Origin: an uncultured Cloacibacillus sp.
GTDB taxonomy: Bacteria; Synergistota; Synergistia; Synergistales; Synergistaceae
NCBI GenBank assembly: GCA_937934445.1
Contig: CALGZM010000066.1
Coordinates: 152,335 to 216,334 of the forward strand
Length of the DNA stretch: 64,000 bases
Direction: 5' to 3'
Positions 3,158 to 46,157 of the stretch are shown here, in pieces (within the stretch, counting starts at the first letter, position 1; each line of letters begins with the position of its first letter). Below the pieces are notes generated by a model that saw nothing but the letters and a program-made list of their open reading frames with translations, was not told the origin of the DNA and did not search any database. Position numbers and translations under genes: made by a program.

Positions 3158-3402
3158 TTCCAGCTCCCCATGACTACGTCTCTGAAAAACTCCTCGACAT
3201 GATCCGGATCGACGAAATGTATTTCTCCGTCGACCTTTACCGAGACGCCGTGTTCTTCGCACCGTCCCATGCAGAACGAGCCGGAGAGCTTGATCAGCTC
3301 GGACATGCCGCTCTCATTTACGAGCTTCGTCAGCCCCTCTACGACACGGCGCGCGCCCTTTATATGGCAGGAACTTCCGACGCAGATTACGACTTCTGTC
3401 AA
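3154..3402 (-). CDS. Thioredoxin-like [2Fe-2S] ferredoxin (NuoE/HndA-like, analogous to hfsA).
   Basis: 82 aa with CxxxxC...CxxxC cysteine pattern (CVGSSC, CMGRC). It is the first gene of the operon and is followed by an AT-rich promoter region at 3403-3500. Confidence 0.68.
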   Translation of the reverse strand: MTEVVICVGSSCHIKGARRVVEGLTKLVNESGMSELIKLSGSFCMGRCEEHGVSVKVDGEIHFVDPDHVEEFFRDVVMGSWK

Positions 3403-7200: not shown

Positions 7201-10200
7201 TCGAGCATCGGTGTGCTGCTGCCGTCGTAATTTTTCCATTCCGAGTTGAAGCCGTTGTAGCTCTCGCTGAGTTTCTGCTTGTCGTCTTCGATTTTTGTCG
7301 CAGAGTCGTCGTCTGCCGCAAAGGTATATACGTTCGTCACGTTTTCTTCGCTGGCGTTGTTCTCGCCTATCAAATTGCCGTCGGCGTTCGTCGCGTAGAC
7401 GTTGGAGATTCTCCCGTCTGCTGCGTTGTTTCCTATGGCGTTGCCAAAGGTCGCCGTCCCTATTACGTAGGTAGTGTTGTATGCTTTGGAGAGCTTGCCG
7501 CTGTTCATGCCTATGAGGCCGCCGACGTTGTTTCCGGTTCCCGTTACCTTCGCTTCTACTGTGGCGAAGAGCGACGAGTTCTTGAAGTCTCCGCTGTTGC
7601 TGCCGAAGAGACCGCCGACGTCGCCCGCGCCGTTTACCGTGCCACTGTTGGTTAAGACGGAGTTTTCGGCGCTTCCGCTGTTGACGCCGAAGATGCCGCC
7701 TGTGTCTGACTGGCTGCCTCCGTCTACCGTGCCGCTGTTGACGAGTTTGACCCAGTTCATAGCGTCCTTATTTTCGTAGAATATGCCTCCTGCGCTGCCG
7801 TCCGTAGCTTTTACTACTCCGGCGTTCGAGAGGGTGAGTTTGTCGTTTTCATCCTTGCGTTGCAGCAATATGCTGTTCTGATTGATTCCCGCGATGCCGC
7901 CGACGTTGCTCTCGCCGACGACGTTACCGGCGTTGATTATTTCTCCGGTGAGGTTGCCTATGCCTTCTTGTACACTATCCTCCGTGCCGTTCATGCCGAC
8001 TATGCCGCCGACGTAGGAGGCGCCCTCTGCCGTTATGTTTCCGGTGTTGGATGCGTCGGTTATCGTACCTTTGTTCTGTCCCGCGACGCCGCCGAAGTAT
8101 TTAGCGTCGCTGTCTTTAGCATACAGGGTCATGTCTGTGTTGGTATTCTCTATTTTACCGGTCAGCTCGTTGATGCCGGCAATGCCGCCTACGAACTGCT
8201 GCCCGTAGATTTTGCCGTAATTGATTAGGTTGTCGCTTCCGCTGATTGTCCCTGCGTTGTCGCCCGCGATGCCGCCGACGTAGTTTTCGCCGGTGATGGC
8301 GGCGAATACGGAGTTTACAAGGTTGGATATCACCGAGCTTGCTCCGTTGTTGCCGACCATGCCGCCGACGTAGTTTCCGCCGTTTATTGTGCCTGCGTTG
8401 CGTCCGCTGTCGATTTCACCGCTGTTCGTGCCGGCGATGCCTCCGACGTTGCTGCCTGCGGCGGTTATTGCGGTGGTGTTGACGGCGTTGTTCATCTCGC
8501 CGTCGTTTGCCCCTGCGACGCCGCCGACGTTGTTGCGGCCGGAGACGATGCTTTCGTTGTAGAGGCTGCTCATCGTGCCATGGTTTTGCCCCGCGATACC
8601 GCCGACGTTGTCGACGGCGGTTCCGCCGTTTGTTACGCCGAGGCTGTTGGCAAGGTACACGTTGCCGCTTTCTTCGTTTACGCCGACGATGCCGCCGAGT
8701 GCGGTGTTTGTGGTATCGGCGTTAGTAGCAGAGGTGACGGCGCTCTCAGAGGTTATAAAAGAATCTTCTCCGCCGCTCTGCGCTTCGCCTATTGTGCCGG
8801 CGTTGGAGCCTGCGACGCCTCCGGCCGCGCCGTTGTTGGCTATTACGGAATCTGATGCTGCGCTGTCGGTTATCGTGCCTGCGTTGGTTCCGGCAATGCC
8901 GCCCGCGTTGCCGCCAGCGCCCGCTTCGACATGGTTGCCGAAAGTCGTCACGCCGGTGATTTCGGCATTTTTATCAGTGACGGCTGCTATCGCGCCTACG
9001 TTTCCGTTTCCTTCGGTGTTGCCGAAGAACTTCGAAGCGTAGACGCGGAGGTCTTTGACCGTGCCGCTGAGTTTGCTGAATATTCCTTCGCTCGCGCTGT
9101 TGTTGTCCTGCGCATCGCTGTTGAGCCCGATGATGCGGAAATCGCGCCCGTCAAACGTGCCGGAGTAGCCCGCGTCGCCGCCGATGGCGTCGTAATCCGT
9201 CAGCTCAGTCGCGTCGATATTGCCCTTGAGCGCGAAGTTGTAGCCGAGGATGCCGCTCTCTTCGTGCATATCCTTGTACAGTTGTATCCCTTTTAGCTGA
9301 TCTGCGTCGCTTATCCAAATATGGGTTTTACCGGCGAGATCATCTCCCAGCCCCTTGATTGCATCAGAGAAGGTTGTGCCCGTTATGTTAAATTTGTCGA
9401 GGGTAAAACTGTCCTCTTCCCACATGTCCACGGCGAGTATTGCGTCGTCGTTCTTACTCGTTAGTTTTATGCCGTTGCCGCTGTCTTGTTTATGGTTCGC
9501 GAGGAATTCGATTAGCCTCTTTGCGCCGTATTGGTCGTCTTGCGCCTCTCCCGCTGCGGCTATGTTGGAAATATCGAACAGCGCTTCGCCGTCTGCCGTG
9601 AGCGAAATGCCGCCTTTCACGCCGCCTAGGTCGCTGTCGACGTAGACGCTGCCGTTTTCAGATGTAACGGAGAACGCGCTGCCCGAAACCACGCTCCCGG
9701 TCGCTAGGTTGCCGTAGAGTATATCGGCGTTGCCGGAGGCAGTGACGGTAATGGCTCCGTCGGTTTTCGCCTTGCCGGTTGTGCGGGCGTACGCGTCGGA
9801 GACGGTCGAGACGGCTTCCTTTGGATTTGAGAGTTTGGTAAAGAAGCCTGTGAGGTCATCCGCCATCTTTTTCGCGATATTTTTTACCGACTTTTCGCCA
9901 TCTTGAACGGATGATTCCAGCTTCCCGATGATTTCTATATCATCGCCATTTATGAAGAGGCCGCCGTTGGTCGACGTGACGTTGCCGTATATCACCGCAT
10001 CGCCGTTTGCGTCGATTTCTACATTCGTGCCGTAGAGCTTAGCGCTGCTTCCGAGCTGGAATGCCTCGTCCACCGCACCATTTATTGCAAGTTCGCCGTC
10101 CGCATAGAGCGTGCCTCTGTAATACCCGACGTCTGTGCCGAAGTGATTAAGCGTCAGGCCGCCGCCGTAGACCGCGAAGCTCGCGTTGCCGGAGCTGGTT

Positions 10201-26589: not shown

Positions 26590-27807
26590 ATGGCGCTTAC
26601 AGACACGCCGCGCTCTAACAGGCTGCATATAGCTTTCTACGGACGGCGTAACGCCGGCAAATCAAGCCTCATCAACCTCGTCACTGGCCAGCAGACGGCG
26701 CTCGTCTCCGAACACGCAGGCACGACCACCGACCCCGTCATAAAAAGCATGGAACTGCTGCCGCTCGGCCCTATCGCCGTGATAGACACGGCAGGGCTAG
26801 ACGACGAAGGCGACCTCGGCGCGCTGCGCATAGGGCGCTCGAAAGAGATGATGGATAGGACGGACCTCGCAGTCCTCGTCGTCTCCGCCGAGACCGCCAG
26901 CGACACGTCGCGCGAACGCGAATGGCTAGCCGAGCTGCGCGCGGGCAAAACCGCCGTAATAGGCGCGCTCAACAAAACCGACAAACTTACGCCGGAGGAA
27001 GCCGAAGCTCTGCGCGCGAAGCTCGAAGCTGAACTCGGCATCCCGTTCGTCGCCCTGTCTGCAAACGACAAAGGCGACCGCGCGAAGCTGCTCTCCGCGA
27101 TAGTCAAAAACGCGCCTTCCGACTTTGAAGCCCCGGCGCTTACCGGAGACCTCTACGCTCCCGGTGCGAAAATCGTCCTCGTCGCGCCGCAGGACATACA
27201 GGCTCCCAAAGGCCGCCTCATACTGCCGCAGGTTCAGGTAATCCGCGACATCCTAGACAACGGCGGCAGCGCATTCGTATGCACCGCGGACCGTTTCCGC
27301 GAGACGCTCGGCGCGCTCAAAGAGCCTCCCGCGCTTGTAATCACTGACTCGCAGGTATTCAAGCTCGTCGACGAAATCCTGCCGCGCGAGGTGCCGCTCA
27401 CTTCGTTCTCGATAATAATGGCGCGCGCCAAAGGCGAGCTTTCCGTCTTCATCGACGGCGCAAAAGCTATAGAAAAACTCGGCCAGCACGACAAGGTGCT
27501 CATAGCCGAAGCCTGCACCCACGCTCCGCTGAACGAAGATATAGGCCGCGAAAAACTCCCGCGCTGGCTGCGTCAAAAAGCAGGCGAAACGCTCTCTGTT
27601 GAAATATGCGCCGGCCAGGATTTTCCAAAGAATTTAAGCGAATACTCCCTTATCCTCCACTGCGGAGGCTGTATGTTCACGCGCAAGCAGCTCATGTCCC
27701 GCATAATCGAAGCCAGAGAGGCGGGCGTCCCGATCACCAATTACGGCGTAGCGATAGCCCAGCTCAACGGTATACTCGACAGGGTGACGGAAGTTTTCAG
27801 AAAATAG
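26590..27807 (+). CDS. hydF: [FeFe]-hydrogenase H-cluster maturation GTPase HydF.
   Basis: N-terminal GTPase motifs (GRRNAGKSS, DTAGLDD, NKTD). C-terminal CxH...HCGGC FeS-binding motif (ACTHAP...LHCGGC). Confidence 0.85.
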   Translation: MALTDTPRSNRLHIAFYGRRNAGKSSLINLVTGQQTALVSEHAGTTTDPVIKSMELLPLGPIAVIDTAGLDDEGDLGALRIGRSKEMMDRTDLAVLVVSAETASDTSREREWLAELRAGKTAVIGALNKTDKLTPEEAEALRAKLEAELGIPFVALSANDKGDRAKLLSAIVKNAPSDFEAPALTGDLYAPGAKIVLVAPQDIQAPKGRLILPQVQVIRDILDNGGSAFVCTADRFRETLGALKEPPALVITDSQVFKLVDEILPREVPLTSFSIIMARAKGELSVFIDGAKAIEKLGQHDKVLIAEACTHAPLNEDIGREKLPRWLRQKAGETLSVEICAGQDFPKNLSEYSLILHCGGCMFTRKQLMSRIIEAREAGVPITNYGVAIAQLNGILDRVTEVFRK

Positions 27808-27866: not shown

Positions 27867-29093
27867 ATGGCGGGAGAATTTAATTTCAGATACCAGCTCA
27901 GTACGATGGCGAAAGAAAGACTGGATCCGACCGAAATAGGGATAATGATAAAACTCGCGATACAGCACAACGCCATATCGCTGACCGCCGGAGAGCCGTC
28001 GGCAGATCTTTATCCGACTGAGGAACTCAAGAAAGCGTTCTCCACGATGTTCGACGACCTTACGCTGCTCGGCTACGCCAAGGAGGACTACGGCCTCCGC
28101 GAACTGCGCGACTGGATAACCGACAGAATGCGCGCCGACGGCATGATCCCAGACTGGGTGACAAGCGACAACATACTTCTGACAAACGGAGCGGGTGAGG
28201 CGATAGAGCTCGTCGCCGAGACGCTCATCGACCCTGGATGCACGGTGCTCGTAGAAGCGCCGACGTTCACAGAGACGCTGCTGACATTCCGCAAGCAGGG
28301 CGCGAACTGTGTCGGCGTACCATCGGACGACGACGGCATAATCCCGGAAGAATTTGAAAAGCTGCTTCGCTCGCGCAGTGTACGTTTCCTGTACACGATA
28401 CCGAACTTCCAGAACCCGAGCGGGCGCACGTCGCCGCTCGAACGCCGCAAGGCGATACTCGACATCGCGCGTCGGTACGACGTGCCGATATTCGAGGACG
28501 ACCCGTATCATTATTTGAGCTACGACGGAGAGCCACCGGCAACCTACATAAAGCTTGCGGGCGAAGACAGGCGCGTGCTGCACTCAAACAGCTTTTCAAA
28601 GCTCGTAGCGCCTGGTGTCCGCTGCGGCTGGCTTGTCGTGCCGAACGCGATAATACCTCACCTGAACGCGTTCCGCGTAAGCGCCGGGCTGACGCGCCCC
28701 GCAATTTTGCAGAAAGGGCTGCACTCATACCTTTCCGCTACAGATTTCGGAAAGCGCGTCGAATTCCTGCGCGCCGCCTACCGCGAACGCCGCGACGGCA
28801 TGATGCGCGCGATAGAAAAACACCTTGCGCCTCTCGGCGTGCGCACGAACTTCCCTAAAGGCGGCTTCTTCATCTGGTGCGAGGCCGGCTTCATCGACGA
28901 CATGGCCTCATTCGCGCGTTTTGCAGTTGAGCAGAAAAAAGTCGGAATCATCCCCGGCAGCGCCTTTTACACGATCGACGAGGCGAAGAACGACCGCCAC
29001 TCCTTCCGCCTATCGTTCGCAAAGGTCGCGCCTGAGACCGCCGACGAAGGCCTGAGAAGGCTCGCGGAGGCGTTCAGAGAGTACAAATCTTAA
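27867..29093 (+). CDS. PLP-dependent aminotransferase (class I/II, Aro8/MocR-like fold).
   Basis: NSFSKLVAPGVRCGW (PLP-lysine region); 408 aa. Followed by a terminator hairpin at 29106-29150. Confidence 0.78.
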   Translation: MAGEFNFRYQLSTMAKERLDPTEIGIMIKLAIQHNAISLTAGEPSADLYPTEELKKAFSTMFDDLTLLGYAKEDYGLRELRDWITDRMRADGMIPDWVTSDNILLTNGAGEAIELVAETLIDPGCTVLVEAPTFTETLLTFRKQGANCVGVPSDDDGIIPEEFEKLLRSRSVRFLYTIPNFQNPSGRTSPLERRKAILDIARRYDVPIFEDDPYHYLSYDGEPPATYIKLAGEDRRVLHSNSFSKLVAPGVRCGWLVVPNAIIPHLNAFRVSAGLTRPAILQKGLHSYLSATDFGKRVEFLRAAYRERRDGMMRAIEKHLAPLGVRTNFPKGGFFIWCEAGFIDDMASFARFAVEQKKVGIIPGSAFYTIDEAKNDRHSFRLSFAKVAPETADEGLRRLAEAFREYKS

Positions 29094-29218
29094 TTCGCAA
29101 TATAATGGCTTATGAAAACTAATGTGTTTCATAAGCCATTTGTTTTTTGTATGTCAAGGATAAAAGTGTATAATACCACAAAGTATGTAATATTAATCTC
29201 CAACAGGAGCAGTCAGCA

Positions 29219-29935
29219 ATGGCGATAAAAACTTCCGCACAGGATGCGGCTATAGAACAAATATTGATTGCAATTCAGCATAAAGAGATTTTCCCTTGCG
29301 CCAAGCTTTTTGAAACGGATCTTGAAAAGTCGTTATGTATGAGCAGAACCCCCATACGTGCGGCTCTTGATCAATTAGTCTTGGATGGAATACTCGAGAA
29401 GAGACAAAATCAGAGAGGGTATATATTTCCCAAGCTGTCACTCTCTGATCTGTTTCATGTATATACACTTCGTGAACGGCTTGAAACTGCATCAGTCGCT
29501 TTAGCATGCCTGCAATGGGATTCCCAAGCCCAAAAGAAAATTGATTGTGCTATAAACTCTGAAATTGAAATAAGCGAGACACAAATCTCAGATAAATATA
29601 AAGATTTAAGTAACGGCTTTCATATAACGCTTGCATCAATTTCGGGGAACGCATACCTAGTGAACTCGCTAAAACGAGCATATCTGCGTATATGTATGTA
29701 CGAACTATTTTACGGTGCAGGCAAATATAGATTAAACAGAGACATAAATCAACATAAAGATTTTAATGATCTGATGATAGACCAGCATAGAGATATCATT
29801 TTCAGTGTCGCTAAAAAAGATCCCGCGGCAGCAACGAAAAAAGTCGTCGCCCATCTTAGGAACACTATAATCGCAACTGACTATGTAACATCGTATCCAG
29901 AATGGAAAGAGTACGAAACACTCTTTCCCCTATGA
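29219..29935 (+). CDS. GntR-family transcriptional regulator (FadR/FCD C-terminal domain). First gene of the low-GC island.
   Basis: N-terminal wHTH (LCMSRTPIRAALDQLVLDGIL) plus an alpha-helical C-terminal domain; about 40% GC. Confidence 0.72.
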   Translation: MAIKTSAQDAAIEQILIAIQHKEIFPCAKLFETDLEKSLCMSRTPIRAALDQLVLDGILEKRQNQRGYIFPKLSLSDLFHVYTLRERLETASVALACLQWDSQAQKKIDCAINSEIEISETQISDKYKDLSNGFHITLASISGNAYLVNSLKRAYLRICMYELFYGAGKYRLNRDINQHKDFNDLMIDQHRDIIFSVAKKDPAAATKKVVAHLRNTIIATDYVTSYPEWKEYETLFPL

Positions 29936-30202
29936 AATTCCTTAATTGTTAATATCGCGGAGCACGGAAGGCGAGAGAATAAAATTCTCCCTTCCGTGTT
30001 TTTTATACTGGCACAAACAATCTTGTAAATTATCAATTTTTATTTATAAAATATTTATAAACATTTCAAGCCAACATCTTATTATTAAATTCTTGACAAA
30101 GCATAAAAAGGCCATATAATGAGTTCATATAACGTATACGTTAAATGAACTCATTAATATCATGCGTTGTTTGCATTCTTTGCGATAGGAGTGAAAATAA
30201 TC

Positions 30203-31300
30203 ATGGAAGTTGCCGTTTTCGGCGCAGGCAACGGTGCCAGCGCATTAGCGTGTGATTTAAGTTTACGCGGCCATAGCGTCAGATTGTGGGAGAATCCATC
30301 CTTCAGCGCTAATATAGAATATCTGCGCGCCAACGGACGTATAGTAACAGCGACTGGGGCGGTCTCGGGAAAAGCCCAGTTGTCGTGCGTAACGACAAGC
30401 GCGAAAGAAGCGATGGACGGTGCTGAGACGATTTTCGTCATCATGCCTTCGTTTGGGCAGGAAGCGGCTTTTAACTATATGATCCCCCATGTAAAAGCAG
30501 GACAGGCTATCTTCATAATGCCGGGTAATTTCGGCTCCATATCGTTGTACTCCAAGCTGAAGGCAAACTACAACGCCGACGGCGTATTGATAGGCGAGGC
30601 GGACACTATTCCATACGCCGCACGTTTGAACGCGGATAAAATCTGCAACGTCTTTGGAGTAAAAGGAAGTATGGCTATGTCCGCGATCCCATCCGACGGT
30701 ATCGATACGCTGCGTGAGAAACTGCAACAATTGCTTCCATTACGTTTATCAACGCTGCCAAGCGTAATGGCGGTGGGGCTGGCAAATACCAATATGATAA
30801 TACATTGTCCAACGATGATAATGAATGCCGGACGCATCGAAAGCGGGGAACGCTTTAGCTTTTACACCGACGGCATGACATCATCAGTTTGTAAAGTCAT
30901 GGAAAAGATGGATGAAGAACGTTTAGCCGTCGCCGCAGCGTTTGGTTATAAGCTTGTAACGGAGTTCGAGGATGCGCTTTCAAATTATGACCTCGATGGT
31001 TCGCGATACTCATGCTTGCACGATATTTTCAGCACTCACCCCGTGTACAGCAAGATGGGGAAAGATTCTCCGCAGAGCCTGACGCACAGATATCTAACTG
31101 AGGATGTACCGTATTTGCTGGTTCCGCTTGCTGAATTAGGCGACATCGCAGGGATTCCTACGCCTACAATCGATTCCATCATAGAGTTGGCCGGTATTCT
31201 CAACGGCACAGACTTCATGTGCTCCGGGCGTGGAATCAGATCTATAGGGATTAAAGCCCCGTCTGTTACCAGCATAATAAAAATGCTAAAAGGGGAGTAA
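30203..31300 (+). CDS. NAD(P)-dependent opine-dehydrogenase-family oxidoreductase (octopine/nopaline DH fold).
   Basis: N-terminal Rossmann motif AVFGAGNGASALA. The length and domain order match the Octopine_DH family. The start is the internal ATG at 30203 (MEVAVFG...). Confidence 0.6.
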   Translation: MEVAVFGAGNGASALACDLSLRGHSVRLWENPSFSANIEYLRANGRIVTATGAVSGKAQLSCVTTSAKEAMDGAETIFVIMPSFGQEAAFNYMIPHVKAGQAIFIMPGNFGSISLYSKLKANYNADGVLIGEADTIPYAARLNADKICNVFGVKGSMAMSAIPSDGIDTLREKLQQLLPLRLSTLPSVMAVGLANTNMIIHCPTMIMNAGRIESGERFSFYTDGMTSSVCKVMEKMDEERLAVAAAFGYKLVTEFEDALSNYDLDGSRYSCLHDIFSTHPVYSKMGKDSPQSLTHRYLTEDVPYLLVPLAELGDIAGIPTPTIDSIIELAGILNGTDFMCSGRGIRSIGIKAPSVTSIIKMLKGE

Positions 31301-31326
31301 TGGCAATTCAAAGGAGGCAGTAAAAG

Positions 31327-32718
31327 ATGTCACGGCTTAAAATTCAAAAAGTACCGCATACTTATGTTCTAATAGCAATACTTATAGTGCTTGCCGCAAT
31401 CGGTACATATCTCATCCCCGCCGGTGAATTTAACCGTGTTACAGACGAACAAACCGGTCGTACACTCGTTATACCTGGTACGTTCCATAAAGTTGAGCAA
31501 ACTCCGGTGAGCTTTTTCGATACTTTTCTGGCTCTGCCGCAAGGCTTGGACGCTGCACGCGATATAGTATTTTTCGTATTGCTGATAGGCTCCGTCTTCC
31601 ATATCATTAATGCAACTGGAACGATTAACAGGATAATCAATCGAGCCATAACCAAGCTTAACGGCAGAGAACACCTGCTTATTCCGGCAACCATGCTCGT
31701 AATTTCAATATGCAGCGCAACTTTTGGCGCGGCTGAGGAGACATTGATTTTTATTCCAATAGCCGTAGCTATTGCAAAGGGTGTCGGGTACGATGCGGTG
31801 GTTGGCGCGGCGATGGTATACCTTGGGGCGTATACGGGATATACGGCTGGCCCCATGAATCCATTTAATACAGGTGTTGCTCAGGGCATCGCAGAGCTAC
31901 CGCTTTTCTCAGGAATTGAATTCCGTTTTGCATGTATGCTTTTATTCTACATTCTAGTATGGTGGTGGATCATGCGTTATGCAAAAAAAGTGAAACACGA
32001 CCCCACCCAAAGTGTTGTGTACGGTTTGGATGTGGACAATCTAGATATTACATTCGACGATTCACCATTAACATCACGTGATAAGGCGATATTAGTAGTA
32101 ATTGTTGTTGGATTTGCATATCTAGTATACGGCGTACTTGCAAAAGGATATTACCTTTACGAAATAATAACGATATTCCTTATTATTGGGCTGATATGCG
32201 GGATCATAGGAAAACTAAGCGCGGAAGAAATTGCGGACAACTTTGTCCTAGGCGCAAAAGAGATGTGCTTCACCGCCGTATGCATCGGATTGGCGAGGGC
32301 TATCGTAGTGGTGCTTGACGAAGGGCACATAATGGACTCTGTCATCAATGCCCTTGCGTTTGTGGTCGGATGGCTGCCTGCAAGCATATCAGCAGTCGGT
32401 ATGCTTATAGTACAAACCATATTGAATTTTATATTCGCCTCCGGCTCCGGTCAGGCTGCGACGACAATGCCGATTCTCGCTCCTCTCGGAGATATACTGG
32501 GAGTTACAAGACAAGTTACAGTTTTAGCCTTCCAGTTTGGAGACGGTATCACAAATTCTATATCACCGATCCAGCCGTCGCTTATAGCAGCAATCGGCCT
32601 TGCAGGCGTGCCTTATGAGAAGTGGTTCAAGTTTGTATGGCCGCTGATGTTGATGTGGACGTTACTAGCCGCAGGATTACTGATTGTCGCCACAGTAATT
32701 AAGCTAGGGCCGTTTTAG
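31327..32718 (+). CDS. YfcC/DcuC-superfamily membrane transporter (putative amino-acid or organic-anion carrier).
   Basis: 463 aa with more than 10 TM helices. N-terminal MSRLKIQKVPHTYVLIAILIVLAAIGTYLIPAGEF is typical of the YfcC family. Confidence 0.6.
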   Translation: MSRLKIQKVPHTYVLIAILIVLAAIGTYLIPAGEFNRVTDEQTGRTLVIPGTFHKVEQTPVSFFDTFLALPQGLDAARDIVFFVLLIGSVFHIINATGTINRIINRAITKLNGREHLLIPATMLVISICSATFGAAEETLIFIPIAVAIAKGVGYDAVVGAAMVYLGAYTGYTAGPMNPFNTGVAQGIAELPLFSGIEFRFACMLLFYILVWWWIMRYAKKVKHDPTQSVVYGLDVDNLDITFDDSPLTSRDKAILVVIVVGFAYLVYGVLAKGYYLYEIITIFLIIGLICGIIGKLSAEEIADNFVLGAKEMCFTAVCIGLARAIVVVLDEGHIMDSVINALAFVVGWLPASISAVGMLIVQTILNFIFASGSGQAATTMPILAPLGDILGVTRQVTVLAFQFGDGITNSISPIQPSLIAAIGLAGVPYEKWFKFVWPLMLMWTLLAAGLLIVATVIKLGPF

Positions 32719-32799
32719 GATTCATACGGCGCAATAATCTCGCTCTTGCAGCGATGTTGTTGAAATAAAGAAATTATATTTGAACGGAGGAAATTTCAA

Positions 32800-33819
32800 A
32801 TGACTTGCAAACTTATCGACGCTGACATCGTTAACGAACTGCTGACTATGAAAGATACAGTAGATGCCTGCGAAATTGCTTTTCGCGACTGGGGAAACGG
32901 AGAAGTCGTCTGCCCAACGAAGGTGACGCTTGAGCTTGGCGAGGACGCAGAGTGGCCGCCTTATAAAAACGGCCTGAACGGTATGCCGGCATACATCCAC
33001 AGTATGAAGAGCGCCGGAATCAAATGCGTTACCGGTTCGCTGAACAATCCTTCATGGGGACTTCCGTACATCATCGCGCTGATATCTCTTTTCGATCCAG
33101 AAACTGGCGTTTTTCGCTGCGTTATGGACGGAGAACAGATCACTAACTACCGTACCGGCGCCCAGGCTGCCGTTGCCGCAAAATACATGGTCAACAAAAA
33201 GAAAATCAAGCTCGGAATCAGCGGAGCGGGCGCGCAGGGGCGCACGCAACTCCTCGCTTTTGCTGAAGTGTTTGAAATAGAAGAGGCAAAGGTATACGAT
33301 ATAAGCTCACAAGCCCTTGAAAAGTATGTTGAGGAGATGGCGCCGCTGACAAAGATAAACATCACGCCCGTCACTTCACCAGAGGCTATATTCGACGACA
33401 CCGACGTAATAGTTTCTGTTACTCACGCGAAAAACAAATTCATCAAGAACGAATGGTTCAAGCCTGGCCAGATAATATTCCCAATGGGGTCGTTCACAGA
33501 ATGCGAGGATGCGCTGCTTTTGTCCGCGGATAGAGTATTCGTCGACTCAATCGGGCAGACTATGCACAGGGGCGCGCTCAAGAGCGTTGTAGATACCAAA
33601 CAGTTCACCGAAGATATGTTGACCGGCACGATAGGCGAACTGGTAGCCGGCAAGAAGGACGGTCACATCAAGGATGGAGAGAGAATAGTCTGCATCCCGA
33701 TAGGGACCGGTGCTATGGACGTAGCCGTAGCGACAAAGGTATACGAAAAAGCGCTCGAGCTCGGCCTTGGAGAATCCTACGTATTCAATAAAAAGACGGA
33801 AGTCGAGCCCAAGAAATAA
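32800..33819 (+). CDS. Ornithine cyclodeaminase / mu-crystallin family enzyme (cyclodeaminase or ketimine/imine reductase).
   Basis: Rossmann motif GISGAGAQG in the middle of a roughly 339-aa protein; OCD/mu-crystallin family topology. Confidence 0.72.
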   Translation: MTCKLIDADIVNELLTMKDTVDACEIAFRDWGNGEVVCPTKVTLELGEDAEWPPYKNGLNGMPAYIHSMKSAGIKCVTGSLNNPSWGLPYIIALISLFDPETGVFRCVMDGEQITNYRTGAQAAVAAKYMVNKKKIKLGISGAGAQGRTQLLAFAEVFEIEEAKVYDISSQALEKYVEEMAPLTKINITPVTSPEAIFDDTDVIVSVTHAKNKFIKNEWFKPGQIIFPMGSFTECEDALLLSADRVFVDSIGQTMHRGALKSVVDTKQFTEDMLTGTIGELVAGKKDGHIKDGERIVCIPIGTGAMDVAVATKVYEKALELGLGESYVFNKKTEVEPKK

Positions 33820-33847
33820 ACTGAGCACCGCTCATTTATAGTATGCA

Positions 33848-33945
33848 CGACAAGAAGCGCGGCGTACAATCTCGCCGCGCTTCTTGTCGTACACAGAAAA
33901 CTCCCGAGCCGGATGTCGTCGGCATACGGCTCGGGGAAGGTTATG
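33848..33945. terminator. Two consecutive strong hairpins acting as bidirectional terminators at the right edge of the low-GC island.
   Basis: GACAAGAAGCGCGGCG-tacaatctc-GCCGCGCTTCTTGTC (15-bp stem), then CCCGAGCCG-N15-CGGCTCGGG. Confidence 0.65.
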
Positions 33946-34094
33946 ATTCTAGCGTGCCGGGCTGCATCTGCAACGCGGCCTGGTCGGAACGTCATGATAC
34001 TTATACCGGTTCTGTGGTCTGGAACGGCTGCACATAATCTGGACCGGCCGCCCTTGCTGGGCGCTTTCCTGCGCCGTTTTGCGCATGCCTCCTT

Positions 34095-35642
34095 TTACTT
34101 TTTCAGCTGCCTTATCACGTCTATCACTGTGCCGTCGCGCCATTCGACTACGCCGACTATTCTGTCGGTGGTGGCTACGGGGTCGGTGGGGCCGGACATT
34201 TTTCTGGCGCGCGCGGCGAGCTCGTCCATCGTGACGACGGGGAGGCCCTTGACTTCGCTGACGGCGTCGAGCAGGTCTTTGCGGCGCGGGTTTATCGTTA
34301 TGCCGTATTCGGTGACTATCGCGTCGATTACCTCGCCGGGGGTCGTGACGCTGTAAACCTTGTCGGTGACGCAGGGGATGCGCCCGCGGAGCAGAGGCTG
34401 CGCTATTATCGTGAGCTTCGCGCCCGCCGCCGTGTCCTGATGTCCGCCTGTGCCGTGGAGTAGAGCGCCGTCCGCTTCTGTGTTGACGTTTGCGTTGAAG
34501 TCGGTGTCGACCTCCGTCGCGCCGAGTATTACGACGTCGAGCATGTTTACGGCCGCGCCGCAGTTCCACGGGTTCGCGTACCAGTCAGCTGAGATTTCTA
34601 TGTGGTTCGGGTTTTCTGCTATCGAGCGCACTGCGTCGAGGTCGAAGGACTGCACGTCCATAAGTTTGCCGACGAGCCCTTCTTTGAGCAGCTCGACGAA
34701 GTAGCCCGTTATGCCTCCGAGGCCGAAGCCGCCCTTTATGCCTTTGCGCAGCATCGCCTGTTTCATGAAGGCGGTGACGGCGAGCGGTATGCCGCCAGCG
34801 CCAGTCTGGAACGATATGCCGTCTTTGAAGTATGGGCTTGCCTCGATCAGCTGCGCCGCGTATTTAGATATAAGGAGGCGCAGCGGGTCGCGCGTGACCT
34901 TCGTCGTTCCGGAGACGATACCCGCCGGGTCGCCTATCGACGGAACTTCAACGACTATGTCGGCTTTGGTCTGCGGTATCGAGACTGGGGCGGCGGGGTA
35001 GGCGACGAGGTTGTCAGTGACGGCTATCACGGTGTCGGCGTAGTCGGCGTCTGTGTAGGCGTAGCCGAGGGAACCGCAGGCAGATTTGCCGACCGTGCCG
35101 CAGATATTGCCGCAGCAGTCGGCCGTCGGCGCGGCTATGAAGGCCACGTCGATGTGGACGTCGCCTGCCATGACGGCGCGCGGCCGTCCGCCGTGGCTGC
35201 GCAGGACGACTGGCACGCCCATGCCGCCCTCGGAGACGAGCTGGCCGATCGGGCCGTTGACGGAGCCCATTATTTTTGTGACGACTCCGCTCTTTATGTG
35301 GTCGATGACCTTTTTGTGTACGCCGAAGAGCGCCGTAGGAAAGAGCGTGAGATCTTTGATTCCTAGCTCGGCGCAGGCGTCGAGCACCATGTTGACGACA
35401 TAGTCGCCGTTTCTGAGATGGTGGTGGAACGATATCGTCATTCCGCTCTTTAGGCCGCTTGCCTTAATTGCGTCTTTGAGCGAAGGTGCTACCTTGTTCA
35501 CTCGGTCGTTGTTGAAGCAGCGTAGCTTCGCGCCGGCTATACGCCCTTCGGGCTTTTTAGCGAAGGCTCCTTCGAAGTGGCGGACCTTGCCGTAGCCTTC
35601 TATGTAGTCGGGTATCTCGCGTTTTACTGCGTTGACGGTCAT
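34095..35642 (-). CDS. citF: Citrate lyase alpha subunit / citrate CoA-transferase (CitF-like; could be a citramalate-lyase alpha subunit).
   Basis: 515 aa CitF-family protein; last gene of a citD-citE-citF operon. Confidence 0.8.
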   Translation of the reverse strand: MTVNAVKREIPDYIEGYGKVRHFEGAFAKKPEGRIAGAKLRCFNNDRVNKVAPSLKDAIKASGLKSGMTISFHHHLRNGDYVVNMVLDACAELGIKDLTLFPTALFGVHKKVIDHIKSGVVTKIMGSVNGPIGQLVSEGGMGVPVVLRSHGGRPRAVMAGDVHIDVAFIAAPTADCCGNICGTVGKSACGSLGYAYTDADYADTVIAVTDNLVAYPAAPVSIPQTKADIVVEVPSIGDPAGIVSGTTKVTRDPLRLLISKYAAQLIEASPYFKDGISFQTGAGGIPLAVTAFMKQAMLRKGIKGGFGLGGITGYFVELLKEGLVGKLMDVQSFDLDAVRSIAENPNHIEISADWYANPWNCGAAVNMLDVVILGATEVDTDFNANVNTEADGALLHGTGGHQDTAAGAKLTIIAQPLLRGRIPCVTDKVYSVTTPGEVIDAIVTEYGITINPRRKDLLDAVSEVKGLPVVTMDELAARARKMSGPTDPVATTDRIVGVVEWRDGTVIDVIRQLKK

Positions 35643-44918: not shown

Positions 44919-45004
44919 CTTTTCGAGCGATACGCCGCGCGCTAATGACAACGAATTGACGTCCAAGCAATATATAAACTGCCTTGCGGAGCCGCAATAA
45001 AAAA

Positions 45005-45890
45005 CGCGCCCTTCCGTTATAGGAAAGGCGCGCCGTGCGTTTAGCGCTGTTTGTGTGCGCGTGTTACTGTTTTGCCTTGCCCTGGTTGGCGACAGCCGCC
45101 TGCGCCGCCGCTATAGCCTCGGCGTCCCCAAGGTAGTAATGCTTTATAGGCTTCAGCCCATCGTCCAGCTCATAGACGAGCGGCACGCCGGTCGGTATAT
45201 TCAGCTCCACGATATCCTGCTCCGACACGCCGTCGAGATACTTGACAAGCGCGCGCAGGCTGTTGCCGTGCGCGGCGATGATGATGCGCTTACCCGCGCG
45301 GATATCCGGCGCTATGGCCTCCTCCCAGTAAGGGACGACGCGCGCGACCGTATCTGCAAGGCACTCGCCTAGCGACAGCTCGTCAGGCGCAATGCCCGCG
45401 TAACGCGCCTCATGCCCAGGCCAGCGCTCGTCCCCCCGTTCAAGCAGAGGAGGACGCGTCGCGTAACTGCGCCGCCAGATCTTCACCTGTGCGTCGCCGT
45501 ACTTAGCAGCAGTCTCCGCCTTATTAAGCCCCTGCAAAGCGCCGTAATGGCGTTCGTTTAACTTCCACGACTTCTCGACAGGGATCCACATCAAATCAGT
45601 CTCTTCCAGCACGCACCATAGAGTTTTGATAGCGCGCCGCAGCACAGAAGTAAACGCCTTATCGAAAACATACCCCTCGTCCCTAAGCAGCCCGCCCGCG
45701 GCCTTAGCCTCTGCGAGCCCCTTGTCGGAAAGCGGCACATCCTGCCACCCCGTAAAACGGTTCTCCTTATTCCACGAACTCTCCCCGTGTCTGATCAGCA
45801 CAAGCTTATACATAGAGGCACCTCCGCGTCGAGTGAAATAAATCGTTTCCCACGCCGCTTCAAATTGTCCGACTGTGATGACTGCTTGTC
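45005..45890. repeat. 0.9-kb near-identical direct duplication (copy 2) containing gpmA.
   Basis: About 99% identical to 16805-17690. Confidence 0.9.
45064..45813 (-). CDS. gpmA: 2,3-bisphosphoglycerate-dependent phosphoglycerate mutase (copy 2, amino-acid sequence identical to copy 1).
   Basis: Identical 249-aa translation to copy 1; about 8 synonymous differences at the DNA level. Confidence 0.9.
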
Positions 45891-46157
45891 AAGGCGGCGC
45901 GGAGTTGGAACAACGGAGCGCGTCTGCAAAATATGCTCCCGACGGCGCCGCAGCTGGGCAGTTGGTTGGAGCGTTTTATGCTTTTTTATTAACCGAGTGT
46001 AACCGTAATGCTTTGCACACAGAGGCGCTCACTTTTTATTGCGAAAATATGTTGCGCCGAACAAATAAATTTTTTTATGTTTTATGCGTAATTACTTACA
46101 TATTTTTAGGTATAATTACGATAGTAGATTGTTGTGATATAGAGGAGGAACTCAATC

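What the first reader, a model, noticed from the sequence alone, without database searches (positions are those of the whole stretch)
29100..33830. Low-GC genomic island: GntR regulator, opine-dehydrogenase-family enzyme, YfcC transporter and OCD/mu-crystallin enzyme
GC content drops from about 63% to about 40-45% exactly between the aminotransferase terminator (29106-29150) and a pair of strong bidirectional hairpins (33848-33945). This indicates horizontal acquisition. The four genes form a self-contained cassette of regulator, NAD(P)H opine-type dehydrogenase, secondary transporter and ornithine-cyclodeaminase-family enzyme. Opine dehydrogenases make or cleave N-(carboxyalkyl)-amino acids. 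OCD-family enzymes act on cyclic imino acids and ornithine/lysine (cyclodeaminases, ketimine reductases). The combination suggests uptake and catabolism of an opine-like or imino-acid compound feeding proline/ornithine fermentation. That pathway has not been described for this kind of organism.
Basis: partly seen in the sequence, partly recalled or inferred. Interest (0 to 1): 0.62.

Follow-up and report, generated by a model that had tools for sequence, protein, structure and literature searches.

The report
Low-GC opine-dehydrogenase catabolic gene island
A 4.8-kb stretch of foreign-looking DNA in a gut Cloacibacillus (Synergistota) genome carries a repressor, an opine-type dehydrogenase, a transporter and a second amine dehydrogenase; it probably lets the cell import and split an unusual amino-acid conjugate, and this pathway has not been described although its enzyme families are known.

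Summary
Window 29094-33843 has 44.9% GC, against 57.8 ± 2.0% for the rest of the window. It holds four + strand genes: an FCD-type GntR regulator, an Octopine_DH-family enzyme, a YfcC/DcuC-type transporter and an OCD/mu-crystallin-family enzyme.

It is a true variable island. A longer version (plus OadB and RidA) is present in one metagenome contig and cleanly absent from a 98%-identical one. The same cassette is a low-GC island at other sites in other high-GC hosts.

The dehydrogenase groups with the catabolic NAD+ opine dehydrogenase of Arthrobacter (1BG6, TM 0.9), not with glycerol-3-phosphate dehydrogenases.

The "OCD" is not a cyclodeaminase. It lacks the GGDxPGK segment and sits closest to archaeal alanine dehydrogenase and pyrroline-2-carboxylate reductase. 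The ornithine/proline reading is therefore not supported.

A consensus promoter followed by an invariant AACGTATACGTT palindrome points to repressor control.

ODH+OCD pairing is conserved across Synergistota. Recurrent partners are the neighbouring aminotransferase, OadB, RidA, TRAP transporters, serine dehydratase and a sarcosine-reductase-like selenoprotein.

Best reading: an inducible catabolic operon for an imported opine-type secondary-amine acid. The substrate is unknown. I found no literature on it.

The parts
27867..29093 (+). Class I/II aminotransferase (KAT / 2-aminoadipate / multiple-substrate type) with host-like GC. It lies outside the compositional island but is a probable functional partner.
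   Evidence: Pfam Aminotran_1_2. Nearest PDB entries are PH0207, alanine:glyoxylate AT 2zc0, MsAT and AadAT. Homologs at 62-70% identity sit directly next to ODH in architecture B loci L014-16, L020, L094-96, L104, L105, L108 and L118. A 76% homolog (L110) has no ODH nearby.
29104..29140 (+). AT-rich hairpin followed by a T-run. It is the left edge of the island and acts as a terminator after the aminotransferase gene.
   Evidence: Inverted repeat I9, 14-nt arms, 100% complementary. Sequence read.
29219..29935 (+). GntR-family regulator with an FCD ligand-binding domain. This is the lowest-GC gene of the island.
   Evidence: Pfam FCD 51.2 bits and GntR 29.4 bits. GC 0.39, GC3 0.35.
29963..30005 (+). 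Hairpin (CACGGAAGG ... CCTTCCGTG) followed by a T-run: terminator after the regulator gene.
   Evidence: Read from the sequence. Conserved in L008 (alignment A2).
30093..30120 (+). Consensus sigma-70 promoter, TTGACA-16-TATAAT, for the ODH-YfcC-OCD operon.
   Evidence: 12 of 12 matches. Both hexamers are conserved in five divergent cassettes (A2).
30117..30156 (.). 40-bp palindrome with the core AACGTATACGTT (30131-30142), directly after the -10 box. Candidate operator of the GntR/FCD repressor.
   Evidence: Inverted repeat I2, 20-nt arms, 95% complementary, no spacer. The core is invariant in the window, L008, L019, L100 and L102, while the surrounding DNA is about 60% identical. The exact core occurs once in the window and once at this promoter in every locus that carries this gene order and includes the ODH upstream region; one further copy lies in the unrelated locus L040.
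30203..31300 (+). NAD-dependent opine-dehydrogenase-family enzyme (ODH), 365 aa.
   Evidence: Pfam Octopine_DH 160.9 bits. PDB 1bg6 E 8.6e-46, against G3PDH E 0.007. AF2 model pLDDT 95, and Foldseek finds 1bg6 at TM 0.88-0.92. H201, R296 and D301 are invariant in 41 homologs. The start at ATG 30203 is the one used by the gene callers.
31327..32718 (+). YfcC/DcuC-family secondary transporter, 463 aa.
   Evidence: Pfam DcuC 322.6 bits. NCBIfam 'putative basic amino acid antiporter YfcC' scores 335 bits, below its cutoff of 500.
32800..33819 (+). OCD/mu-crystallin-family NAD dehydrogenase of a distinct clade. It is not a cyclodeaminase.
   Evidence: Pfam 194.7 bits. PDB 1omo E 1.8e-43, 6t3e E 1e-39, SbnB E 5e-25. 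Foldseek ranks 6t3e, 1omo, SbnB and BhcD first. It has PMG----SFTECED where the Agrobacterium OCD has GVGGDCPGKTE. The clade signature is conserved in most of 59 locus-encoded homologs.
33844..33893 (.). GC-rich hairpin at the right edge of the island. It is shared with sister species L008 and is probably the displaced native terminator of the aminotransferase gene.
   Evidence: Inverted repeat I1, 21-nt arms, 95% complementary. Homology with L008 ends at 33890. By analogy, in the L113/L114 pair the island sits between the AT stop codon and a GC-rich hairpin.

Best explanation
The region is a horizontally acquired, strain-variable catabolic cassette in a Cloacibacillus chromosome. It sits between the stop codon of an aminotransferase gene and what is probably that gene's original terminator.

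Proposed mechanism. Steps 1-4 below are inferred, not shown.
1. The FCD-type GntR protein represses a consensus sigma-70 promoter by binding the AACGTATACGTT palindrome that overlaps the transcription start. An imported ligand releases it.
2. The YfcC-type carrier takes up an amino-acid-like anionic compound.
3. The NAD+-dependent opine dehydrogenase oxidises a secondary amine of the N-(1-carboxyalkyl)-amino-acid (opine) type to an imine. The imine hydrolyses to an L-amino acid plus a 2-oxo acid.
4. The OCD-family enzyme is an alanine-dehydrogenase / ketimine-reductase-like NAD dehydrogenase. It either deaminates the released amino acid or attacks the L-configured side of the same secondary amine, as SbnB does.
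5. The neighbouring aminotransferase funnels products into central metabolism. In longer versions of the island, RidA (imine hydrolysis) and OadB (Na+-pumping decarboxylase subunit) would also do so.

Shown: the composition, the indel polymorphism, the family and fold memberships, conservation of catalytic residues, conserved linkage of the genes, purifying selection, and the conserved promoter and palindrome.

The substrate is not identified.
For: Island and horizontal transfer:
- GC and GC3 deviations.
- L113 carries a 6.6-kb low-GC island (GntR-ODH-YfcC-OCD-OadB-RidA). It is missing from L114, which is 97.8-98.5% identical on both flanks.
- The same gene order forms low-GC islands at other sites in other high-GC hosts (L100, L102/L103).
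- Three species share the site after the AT gene.

The genes are functional: dN/dS is 0.02-0.06 between the window and L008.

ODH is of the opine-dehydrogenase type:
- Pfam 160.9 bits.
- 1bg6 E 8.6e-46, with His/Arg/Asp aligned.
- Invariant H201, R296 and D301.
- Fold ranking is CENDH, then octopine DH, then CntM-type, then ketopantoate reductases.
- 26-31% identity to Ti-plasmid Octopine_DH-family proteins.

Catabolic direction:
- There is an acidic residue at the end of Rossmann strand beta-2 in both enzymes (E30 nearly invariant; D167 invariant). By the usual rule this indicates NAD rather than NADP.
- The closest characterised enzyme is the inducible NAD+ enzyme of an Arthrobacter strain that was isolated on an opine as carbon source (PMC4575208, read).
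- Distant versions of the module use TRAP transporters with binding proteins, which are importers.
- Control by an FCD-GntR repressor.

Functional coupling:
- OCD lies next to ODH in about 32 of 40 loci where ODH is at least 39% identical, but in only 3 of 40 more distant loci.
- Gene order is shuffled between lineages while gene content is kept.
- The OCD/mu-crystallin family (PF02423) itself contains opine dehydrogenases, from sponges (PMC4575208). SbnB, which cleaves an opine-like compound, is a close structural match.
Against: - No enzyme activity, ligand or transcript was measured.
- The substrate is unknown, and no abundant natural opine is known in guts or digesters.
- The OCD clade also occurs without ODH, next to a GntR gene and a Na+ symporter in Vescimonas. 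It may therefore act on an imported compound of its own.
- The aminotransferase linkage is frequent but not obligatory. In the window a terminator separates the aminotransferase from the cassette.
- No integrase, transposase or flanking direct repeats explain how the cassette moves.
- No native low-GC genome with the same gene order was found, so no donor can be named.
- Octopine_DH-family members could reduce other imines or 2-oxo acids.
Confidence: 0.5

Rival explanations
1. Ti-plasmid-like opine pathway. The dehydrogenase releases arginine or ornithine from an octopine-type opine, and the OCD-family enzyme cyclises ornithine to proline for Stickland-type fermentation.
For: On pTi_CFBP2177 the genes for arginase, an Octopine_DH-family protein and ornithine cyclodeaminase are adjacent. 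NCBIfam names the transporter family a putative basic-amino-acid antiporter.
Against: The window's OCD-family protein has a 4-residue deletion that removes the GGDxPGK segment present in the Agrobacterium cyclodeaminase. It is only 21% identical to that enzyme. It ranks with AlaDH, Pyr2C reductase, SbnB and BhcD ahead of the true cyclodeaminases 1x7d, 1u7h and 5gzj. No arginase, proline reductase or ornithine genes are present in the window or in the 30 or more related loci examined.
Confidence: 0.08
2. A cyclic imino-acid or lysine-derived pathway, not opines. The OCD-family enzyme acts as a pyrroline-2-carboxylate / piperideine-2-carboxylate reductase or dehydrogenase together with the aminotransferase (as ALD1 and SARD4 do in plants). 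The Octopine_DH-family enzyme acts on a related imine or a saccharopine-like intermediate.
For: The best structural match is T. litoralis Pyr2C reductase 6t3e. The aminotransferase belongs to the 2-aminoadipate / kynurenine type. RidA, an imine deaminase, is present in longer versions of the island. The transporter family is linked to basic amino acids.
Against: ODH retains the full His/Arg/Asp set of opine dehydrogenases and is closest to an acyclic-opine enzyme. No proline racemase-like, hydroxyproline or lysine-fermentation genes are linked in any locus examined.
Confidence: 0.17
3. A specific version of the best explanation: the cassette cleaves dietary glycation products such as N-epsilon-carboxymethyl- or carboxyethyl-lysine into lysine plus glyoxylate or pyruvate. 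The aminotransferase then converts glyoxylate to glycine.
For: Cloacibacillus evryensis is a reported carboxymethyllysine degrader whose enzymes are unknown (PMC9501902 and bioRxiv 10.64898/2026.06.11.731642). A close PDB relative of the aminotransferase is an alanine:glyoxylate transaminase. The transporter is of the basic-amino-acid type. Distant ODH-OCD clusters sit next to sarcosine-reductase-like (N-substituted-glycine) selenoprotein B genes.
Against: The metabolites reported for Cloacibacillus keep the carboxymethyl group, for example carboxymethyl-cadaverine. That argues against cleavage as the main route. The module also occurs in oil-field and digester Synergistota such as Thermovirga and Acetomicrobium, where dietary glycation products are not expected. 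No paper links the two.
Confidence: 0.1
4. Biosynthetic or redox-sink role. The OCD-type enzyme makes alanine, the ODH condenses it with pyruvate to an alanopine-like opine, and YfcC exports it. This would dispose of NADH and ammonia during amino-acid fermentation.
For: Opine dehydrogenases serve this role in marine invertebrates, and the reactions are reversible (PMC4575208). The OCD-family protein is closest to alanine dehydrogenase.
Against: Related clusters use binding-protein-dependent TRAP importers. Both enzymes look NAD- rather than NADPH-specific. A dedicated FCD-GntR repressor with a strong promoter is typical of substrate-induced catabolism. A strain-variable accessory island is unlikely to carry a core redox valve.
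Confidence: 0.07
5. Not horizontal transfer: a native region whose low GC reflects local mutational or expression effects.
For: The cassette sits at the same site in at least three related species. The nearest ODH relatives are other Cloacibacillus-like copies.
Against: GC3 is 0.35-0.59 against 0.74 ± 0.06 for the background. The cassette is cleanly absent from a 98%-identical contig. Other high-GC hosts show the same contrast at unrelated sites. In several other Synergistota the module has the host's GC. dS between the sister species is 2-5 times higher in the island than in the backbone genes.
Confidence: 0.03

Closest known systems
Opine dehydrogenase of Arthrobacter sp. 1C (CENDH, N-(1-D-carboxyethyl)-L-norvaline dehydrogenase, EC 1.5.1.28, PDB 1BG6)
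   Same: Same Pfam family and the same two-domain fold (TM 0.88-0.92, 28% identity). The His/Arg/Asp active-site residues align. There is an acidic residue for NAD specificity. It has a catabolic role in a bacterium that grows on an opine (PMC4575208).
   Different: Only about 28-33% identical. The host here is a strict anaerobe of another phylum. The gene is embedded in a regulator-transporter-OCD cassette. The substrate is unknown.
Ti-plasmid nopaline/octopine catabolic regions (noc/occ) of Agrobacterium
   Same: Accessory, horizontally mobile opine-utilisation genes. An Octopine_DH-family gene and an OCD-family gene are adjacent there too (arginase, ODH-family gene, ocd on pTi_CFBP2177). 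Both systems have a dedicated regulator and transporter.
   Different: In Agrobacterium the catabolic cleavage is assigned to the flavoproteins NoxAB/OoxAB, and uptake is by ABC permeases (PMC4575208). The Agrobacterium OCD is a true cyclodeaminase with GGDCPGK, which is missing here. ODH identity is only 26%. The present cassette has no arginase.
SbnB (with SbnA) of staphyloferrin B biosynthesis, and CmnK
   Same: OCD-family NAD+ enzymes that oxidatively cleave an opine-like N-(carboxyalkyl) amino acid on its L-glutamate side. They are strong structural matches (TM 0.86-0.88).
   Different: About 25% identity. They work in a biosynthetic context with a PLP synthase. No SbnA-like gene is present in the window's cassette.
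Archaeal alanine dehydrogenase AF1665 (1OMO) and Thermococcus litoralis pyrroline-2-carboxylate reductase (6T3E)
   Same: Nearest solved relatives of the OCD-family protein (E 1.8e-43 and 1e-39; TM 0.87-0.88). The Lys41/Lys75/Arg118 carboxylate-binding positions and the NAD-binding Rossmann motif are conserved.
   Different: 30-34% identity. The score is below the NCBIfam equivalog cutoff (219 against 409 bits). The clade has its own PMGS[FY]xEC.D, HRGAL and IPIGTGAMD signatures.
Metallophore opine dehydrogenases (CntM: staphylopine, pseudopaline and yersinopine dehydrogenases)
   Same: Same superfamily and fold (TM about 0.72).
   Different: 14-15% identity, with no phmmer match at E <= 0.01. 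Those enzymes use NADPH and are biosynthetic. No CntL-like nicotianamine-synthase gene is present here.
Sponge tauropine and strombine dehydrogenases (OCD/mu-crystallin family)
   Same: They show that PF02423 enzymes can themselves be opine dehydrogenases (PMC4575208). The cassette may therefore hold two unrelated opine-type dehydrogenases.
   Different: They are animal enzymes with a redox-sink role. Their sequences were not compared here.

Membership tests
Octopine_DH family / NAD(P) opine dehydrogenases (PF02317) | C-terminal Octopine_DH helical domain scoring above the Pfam gathering score | tested here: met
   160.9 bits against a cutoff of 30, covering profile positions 2-148 of 150.
Octopine_DH family / NAD(P) opine dehydrogenases (PF02317) | N-terminal Rossmann dinucleotide-binding domain with a GxGxxG/A motif | tested here: met
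   The motif reads VFGAGNGA; G7, G9 and G11 are nearly invariant. The NAD_Gly3P_dh_N domain hit scores 29.5 bits. The model has a beta-alpha-beta start.
Octopine_DH family / NAD(P) opine dehydrogenases (PF02317) | Conserved His / Arg / Asp active-site residues. That these form the catalytic set in CENDH and octopine dehydrogenase is from my memory of the structural papers. | tested here: met
   H201, R296 and D301 are invariant in 41 homologs. They align with H, R and D of 1bg6 in the HCPTM / RYLTEDV segments.
Octopine_DH family / NAD(P) opine dehydrogenases (PF02317) | Overall fold closest to solved opine dehydrogenases rather than to G3PDH or ketopantoate reductases | tested here: met
   Foldseek gives 1bg6 TM 0.88-0.92, octopine DH 0.80, CntM-type about 0.72 and ketopantoate reductase / mandelate DH at most 0.66. 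No G3PDH is in the top 50. By phmmer, G3PDH scores only E 0.007.
Octopine_DH family / NAD(P) opine dehydrogenases (PF02317) | Reversible NAD(P)H-dependent condensation of an amino acid with a 2-oxo acid | not testable with these tools
   Needs an enzyme assay.
Ornithine cyclodeaminase (EC 4.3.1.12), in the strict sense | GGDxPGK(T)E segment carrying the catalytic Asp. Its identity as Asp228 of P. putida OCD is from memory. | tested here: not met
   The Agrobacterium Ti-plasmid OCD has GVGGDCPGKTE. The window protein and its clade have PMG----S[FY]xEC.D (A4).
Ornithine cyclodeaminase (EC 4.3.1.12), in the strict sense | Score above the NCBIfam equivalog cutoffs for OCD | tested here: not met
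   PRK07589 scores 88 bits against a cutoff of 350; PRK06407 scores 81 against 337.
OCD/mu-crystallin superfamily (PF02423) | Pfam domain above threshold, the family fold, and conserved Lys/Arg carboxylate-binding residues | tested here: met
   194.7 bits against a cutoff of 24. TM is 0.8-0.88 to more than 40 family structures. K41, K75 and R118 are invariant.
Archaeal-type alanine dehydrogenase (TIGR02371) | Score above the equivalog cutoff | tested here: not met
   219.4 bits against a cutoff of 409.15. It is the best hit, but below the cutoff. The GaDgPGKqE loop of AF1665 is replaced.
FadR/FCD subfamily of GntR regulators | N-terminal GntR winged-helix domain plus a C-terminal FCD domain | tested here: met
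   GntR 29.4 bits (cutoff 27) and FCD 51.2 bits (cutoff 24.3).
FadR/FCD subfamily of GntR regulators | Palindromic operator with a GT...AC core near the regulated promoter | tested here: inconclusive
   The invariant palindrome AACGTATACGTT overlaps the start of the consensus promoter in five divergent cassettes. Binding was not tested.
Genomic island (horizontally acquired, variable) | Atypical composition relative to the host | tested here: met
   GC 0.449 against 0.578 ± 0.020. GC3 z-scores are -2.5 to -6.6.
Genomic island (horizontally acquired, variable) | Presence/absence polymorphism between close relatives | tested here: met
   L113 (with island) against L114 (without), 98% identical on both flanks. 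AT without the cassette occurs in L112, L121 and L122. This was shown for a related species, not for the window's own species.
Genomic island (horizontally acquired, variable) | Mobility genes, tRNA target or flanking direct repeats | tested here: not met
   No integrase or transposase lies inside or next to the island, and no convincing flanking repeats were found. The nearest recombinase gene is 12 kb away, at 15896-16744.

The most novel reading that the evidence does not exclude
The ODH + OCD-clade pair is the core of an undescribed, Synergistota-wide pathway for N-(carboxyalkyl) amino acids. Two unrelated NAD dehydrogenases attack the D-side and the L-side of one secondary amine. In several lineages the pathway is coupled to a sarcosine-reductase-like selenoprotein B (GrdF/GrdG-like, far below the equivalog cutoffs; L035, L049, L097). 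That would make N-substituted glycines such as strombine, iminodiacetate-type compounds or carboxymethyl-lysine a new class of Stickland substrates. In gut Cloacibacillus the pathway travels as a plug-in island with its own promoter and repressor.
Probability: 0.15. Interest if true: 0.75.

Novelty: new variant of a known kind. Interest (0 to 1): 0.55.

Why it matters
Synergistota are common amino-acid fermenters in guts and digesters and are poorly understood. Opine-type dehydrogenases have essentially been studied in Agrobacterium, soil aerobes, marine invertebrates and metallophore synthesis.

A conserved, regulated ODH-OCD module in strict anaerobes points to an unrecognised class of nitrogenous substrates. 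Candidates include plant or animal opines, saccharopine-like compounds and dietary glycation products.

The module is accessory in Cloacibacillus, and its distant versions are linked to a glycine-reductase-type selenoenzyme.

Natural strain pairs with and without the island, and a sharply defined promoter and operator, make the question directly testable.

Tried and rejected
- Riboswitch or other RNA leader in the 267-nt AT-rich gap before ODH: no Rfam match at E <= 1.
- Mobility signatures: no integrase, transposase, tRNA or flanking direct repeat at the island ends in the window, L100, L102 or L113.
- Plasmid carriage: the best plasmid ODH match is 36% identical, and no cassette was found on a plasmid.
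- Donor lineage: the closest native low-GC genomes (L014-16, L094, L104, L105, L115; GC 0.41-0.45) have a different gene order and only 55-58% ODH identity. No donor can be named.
- Source species in the GTDB representative genomes: the best ODH match was 58%, with a 66% partial match in an uncultured Cloacibacillus. The window's own species is therefore either absent from that collection or its representative lacks the island. This was not resolved.
- Literature: no paper combines opine dehydrogenase with Synergistetes/Synergistota, with glycine reductase or with carboxymethyllysine.
- Second operator copies upstream of gntR or of the aminotransferase: none.
- Link to the adjacent citrate-lyase genes: rejected as coincidental, because the right flank differs in sister species L008 and in L113.
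- The 28-kb segment bounded by 900-bp repeats as a larger mobile element: not followed up. It has host GC and carries housekeeping genes.

Full report
**1. Observation.**

The compositional break is real and sharp.
- The segment 29094-33843 has 44.9% GC. The 5 kb on each side have 57.8% and 58.5%.
- None of 199 other 4750-nt windows falls below 54% (mean 57.8%, sd 2.0) (profiles).
- Four + strand ORFs fill the segment.
- Their GC3 values are 0.35, 0.53, 0.44 and 0.59. For 39 other ORFs of the window GC3 is 0.736 ± 0.058, which gives z-scores of -2.5 to -6.6.

- An AT-rich hairpin with a T-run lies at 29104-29140, directly after the aminotransferase stop codon.
- Two GC-rich hairpins lie at 33844-33893 and 33903-33935.
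- The identical arrangement is present on at least seven independent metagenome contigs, so it is not an assembly chimera.

**2. Host and genes.**

Exact-sequence look-ups place the window in Cloacibacillus (Synergistota).
- The 90% cluster of the OCD-family protein contains WP_087367003.1 of Cloacibacillus sp. An23.
- The citrate-lyase cluster contains a Synergistes MAG protein.

Family assignments:

| Gene | Coordinates | Family | Score |
|---|---|---|---|
| Regulator | 29219-29935 | GntR + FCD | 29.4 and 51.2 bits |
| ODH | 30203-31300 | Octopine_DH | 160.9 bits |
| Transporter | 31327-32718 | DcuC/YfcC | 322.6 bits |
| OCD-family | 32800-33819 | OCD_Mu_crystall | 194.7 bits |

The flanking genes are HydF and a class I/II aminotransferase on the left. 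On the right are citrate lyase CitF/E/D, an isocitrate-dehydrogenase-family gene and aconitases.

**3. Is it a horizontally acquired island?** Yes, but an old and recurrent one.

(a) A sister species (L008; backbone proteins 93-97% identical) has the same four genes at the same left junction, with the same low GC. Its right flank is different.

(b) A third Cloacibacillus-like species (L019/L113) has the cassette after the same aminotransferase, extended by an OadB gene and a RidA gene.
- All six genes have low GC3 (0.46-0.64, against 0.74-0.85 in the flanks).
- Contig L114 is 97.8-98.5% identical to L113 on both sides but has about 49 bp in place of the 6.6-kb island.
- The breakpoints are the last codons of the aminotransferase gene and a GC-rich hairpin.
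- Related contigs L112, L121 and L122 have the aminotransferase without the cassette.

(c) The same gene order (GntR, ODH, YfcC, OCD) is a low-GC island at unrelated sites in other high-GC hosts.
- In L100, cassette GC3 is 0.36-0.45 against 0.77-0.81 in the flanks.
- In L102/L103, cassette GC3 is 0.41-0.45 against 0.79-0.85.

(d) In other Synergistota the module has the host's own GC, whether low (L014-16, L094, L115) or high (L017, L018, L020, L097).

(e) Between the window and L008, dS is 0.40-0.74 for most backbone genes (1.0 for the hydrolase gene) and 1.06 for the aminotransferase.
- For the island genes dS is 1.2-3.3 or saturated.
- dN/dS is low throughout: 0.02-0.06 in the island genes and at most 0.12 elsewhere.
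- The genes are therefore functional.
- The island either coalesces more deeply than the backbone (allelic replacement or separate gains) or is being driven by amelioration. I could not separate these two possibilities.

No integrase, transposase, tRNA or flanking repeat marks the ends. No plasmid copy exists in PLSDB, and no donor lineage can be named.

By analogy with L113/L114, the hairpin at 33844-33893 is probably the aminotransferase gene's original terminator, displaced by the insertion. This is an inference.

**4. The dehydrogenase.**

- phmmer against the PDB gives the Arthrobacter opine dehydrogenase 1bg6 at E 8.6e-46 and scallop octopine dehydrogenase at E 5.5e-9. Glycerol-3-phosphate dehydrogenase reaches only E 0.007.
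- An AF2 model (pLDDT 95.2) matches 1bg6 at TM 0.88-0.92.
- The next matches are octopine dehydrogenase (0.80), staphylopine/pseudopaline/yersinopine dehydrogenases (about 0.72), and ketopantoate reductases and mandelate dehydrogenases (at most 0.66).
- H201, R296 and D301 are invariant in 41 homologs and align with the His, Arg and Asp of 1bg6.
- Identity to Ti-plasmid family members is 26-31%.
- E30 at the end of the second Rossmann strand, nearly invariant, aligns with the Asp of the NAD+-dependent Arthrobacter enzyme. This suggests NAD rather than NADP, by inference from the usual rule.

The protein is an opine-dehydrogenase-family member, nearest the one bacterial enzyme known to act catabolically (PMC4575208).

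**5. The 'OCD'.**

- It is a member of the superfamily: Pfam 194.7 bits, and TM 0.8-0.88 to all family structures.
- Its nearest relatives are archaeal alanine dehydrogenase (1omo, E 1.8e-43), T. litoralis pyrroline-2-carboxylate reductase (6t3e), SbnB and iminosuccinate reductase. These rank ahead of the true cyclodeaminases.
- It scores below every NCBIfam equivalog cutoff.
- Aligned with the annotated Ti-plasmid ornithine cyclodeaminase, it lacks four residues of the GVGGDCPGKTE segment and reads PMG----SFTECED.
- From memory, the Asp in that segment is the catalytic Asp228 of the Pseudomonas enzyme.
- The replacement motif, with HRGAL and IPIGTGAMD, is conserved in most of 59 homologs encoded in the fetched loci and in database homologs.
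- K41, K75, R118 and the NAD-type D167 are invariant.

I conclude that it is an NAD-dependent amino-acid or secondary-amine dehydrogenase of a distinct clade, not a cyclodeaminase.

PF02423 also contains the sponge opine dehydrogenases (PMC4575208), and SbnB cleaves an opine-like compound. The cassette may therefore hold two unrelated opine-type dehydrogenases.

**6. Regulation.**

- A perfect TTGACA-16-TATAAT promoter lies at 30093-30120.
- It is followed at once by a 40-bp palindrome at 30117-30156.
- In an alignment of the ODH upstream regions from five cassettes whose proteins are only 58-88% identical, the two hexamers and the 12-bp core AACGTATACGTT are invariant. The rest is about 60% identical.
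- The exact core occurs once in the 64-kb window. It also occurs once, at this promoter, in every locus that carries this gene order and includes the ODH upstream region. One further copy lies in the unrelated locus L040.
- This is the footprint expected for an operator of the adjacent FCD-type GntR repressor. Binding is inferred, not shown.
- No Rfam family matches the leader.
- The regulator gene has its own terminator at 29963-30005.

**7. Conserved neighbourhood.**

Among 80 genome loci fetched with the ODH profile, an OCD-clade gene lies beside ODH in about 32 of the 40 loci where ODH is at least 39% identical. Nearly all of these are Synergistota, and most exceptions are short contigs. 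Among the 40 more distant loci it does so in only 3.

Three architectures recur.
- **A:** GntR > ODH > YfcC > OCD, with or without OadB and RidA. Where flanking DNA is available for comparison it is a low-GC island in a high-GC host (window, L008, L019/L113, L100, L102).
- **B:** GntR < | OCD > YfcC > ODH > aminotransferase > OadB, with or without RidA and a second OCD (L014-16, L094-96, L104, L105, L108/109, L115).
- **C:** found in Thermovirga, Aminivibrio, 'Bacterium M3-1' and others.
  - TRAP DctPQM or an orphan SBP_bac_3 protein.
  - An iron-sulfur L-serine dehydratase.
  - Two OCD paralogs.
  - Gly_reductase/GRDB genes whose best NCBIfam models are sarcosine reductase GrdG/GrdF, far below cutoff (436 against 780 bits; 395 against 800 bits).

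Gene order is shuffled between lineages while gene content is kept, which argues for functional coupling.

The window's aminotransferase is 62-70% identical to those of architecture B, so the functional unit probably extends beyond the compositional island. A 76% homolog in another Cloacibacillus MAG has no ODH nearby, so the link is frequent but not obligatory.

The OCD clade also occurs without ODH, next to a GntR gene and a Na+ symporter in Vescimonas.

**8. Mechanism and rivals.**

The best-supported reading is an inducible catabolic operon.
- The compound is taken up by YfcC.
- ODH cleaves its secondary amine with NAD+ into an L-amino acid and a 2-oxo acid.
- The product is then dehydrogenated by the OCD-clade enzyme, or that enzyme cleaves the other side of the amine.
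- Transamination follows. In longer versions of the island, RidA hydrolyses the imine and OadB contributes to Na+-coupled decarboxylation.
- The identity of the substrate is open. OadB would fit oxaloacetate or glutaconyl-CoA formation, that is, aspartate- or 2-oxoglutarate-containing conjugates. The Grd-like genes would fit N-substituted glycines.

Rivals considered:
- The Ti-plasmid-like arginine/ornithine/proline route. It is disfavoured by the missing cyclodeaminase segment and by the absence of arginase, proline-reductase and ornithine genes.
- A cyclic imino-acid or lysine-derived route.
- Cleavage of dietary carboxymethyl-lysine. This is attractive because C. evryensis degrades CML by unknown enzymes. 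However, the reported products keep the carboxymethyl group, and the module also occurs in non-gut Synergistota.
- A biosynthetic redox-sink role, disfavoured by the TRAP importers, the NAD-type cofactor sites and the repressor control.

**9. Novelty.**

Every part belongs to a known family. An ODH-family gene next to ocd exists on Ti plasmids.

What is new:
- The combination of ODH with a non-cyclodeaminase OCD clade.
- Its conservation across an anaerobic phylum.
- Its linkage to Stickland-type and Na+-decarboxylase components.
- Its behaviour as a strain-variable, self-regulated island in gut Cloacibacillus.

I found no publication on it. I rate it a new variant of a known kind, of moderate interest (0.55). 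Interest would be higher if the substrate proves to be a dietary glycation product or a new Stickland substrate.

Noticed in passing
window 16805-17697 and 44999-45897: A direct repeat of about 900 bp at 97% identity, 28.2 kb apart. Each copy holds a 249-aa His_Phos_1 (phosphoglycerate-mutase-like) gene with its terminator. A tyrosine recombinase gene (15896-16744, - strand) sits just left of the left copy. The island lies inside this 28-kb segment, which otherwise has host GC and carries housekeeping genes.
   Followed up: partly
window 4221-13613 (-) and 13644-15323 (-): A 3130-aa ORF with many internal repeats of about 80-95 nt lies next to a ShlB/FhaC-type POTRA transporter gene. This looks like a two-partner-secretion adhesin or exoprotein pair.
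   Followed up: no
window 1433-3262 (-) and 262-1452 (-): An [FeFe]-hydrogenase-like protein carrying a PAS domain is followed by a SpoIIE/PP2C phosphatase gene. This is the layout of a sensory (HydS-type) hydrogenase signalling pair. HydF is also in the window, at 26590-27807.
   Followed up: no
window 33890-34095, compared with L008 13686 onward and L113 15834 onward: The DNA to the right of the island differs in each of three related species: citrate lyase, an ABC transporter cluster, and a tRNA-binding protein gene. The site downstream of the aminotransferase is therefore a hot spot for rearrangement.
   Followed up: partly
L035 3558-5979, L049 14772-16130, L097 1976-4879: Glycine-reductase-family protein B genes lie directly beside ODH-OCD clusters in three distant Synergistota. 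Their best models are sarcosine reductase GrdG/GrdF, but they score at about half the equivalog cutoff. This may be a reductase with a new substrate.
   Followed up: partly
L113 14144-15768; L108 9268-10862: A lone Na+-translocating decarboxylase beta-subunit gene (OadB, PF03977) and a RidA gene travel with the cassette. No alpha or gamma subunit gene is nearby.
   Followed up: partly
L100 2180-3568; L018 5985-7331; L118 2553-3902: In some cassettes the transporter slot holds a different YfcC/DcuC subtype, only 39-41% identical to the window's, while the OCD gene stays 65-80% identical. The transporter gene appears to have been swapped within the cassette.
   Followed up: no
L135 (pTi_CFBP2177) 149-2346: On a nopaline-type Ti plasmid an unnamed Octopine_DH-family gene sits between the arginase and ornithine cyclodeaminase genes. 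This ODH-OCD adjacency in a known opine catabolic region is rarely discussed.
   Followed up: partly
L134 (Vescimonas fastidiosa pMM35_01) 5484-8981: A member of the OCD clade (52% identical) is paired with a GntR regulator and a sodium:solute symporter, without any ODH gene, on an 861-kb replicon of a human gut Oscillospiraceae.
   Followed up: no
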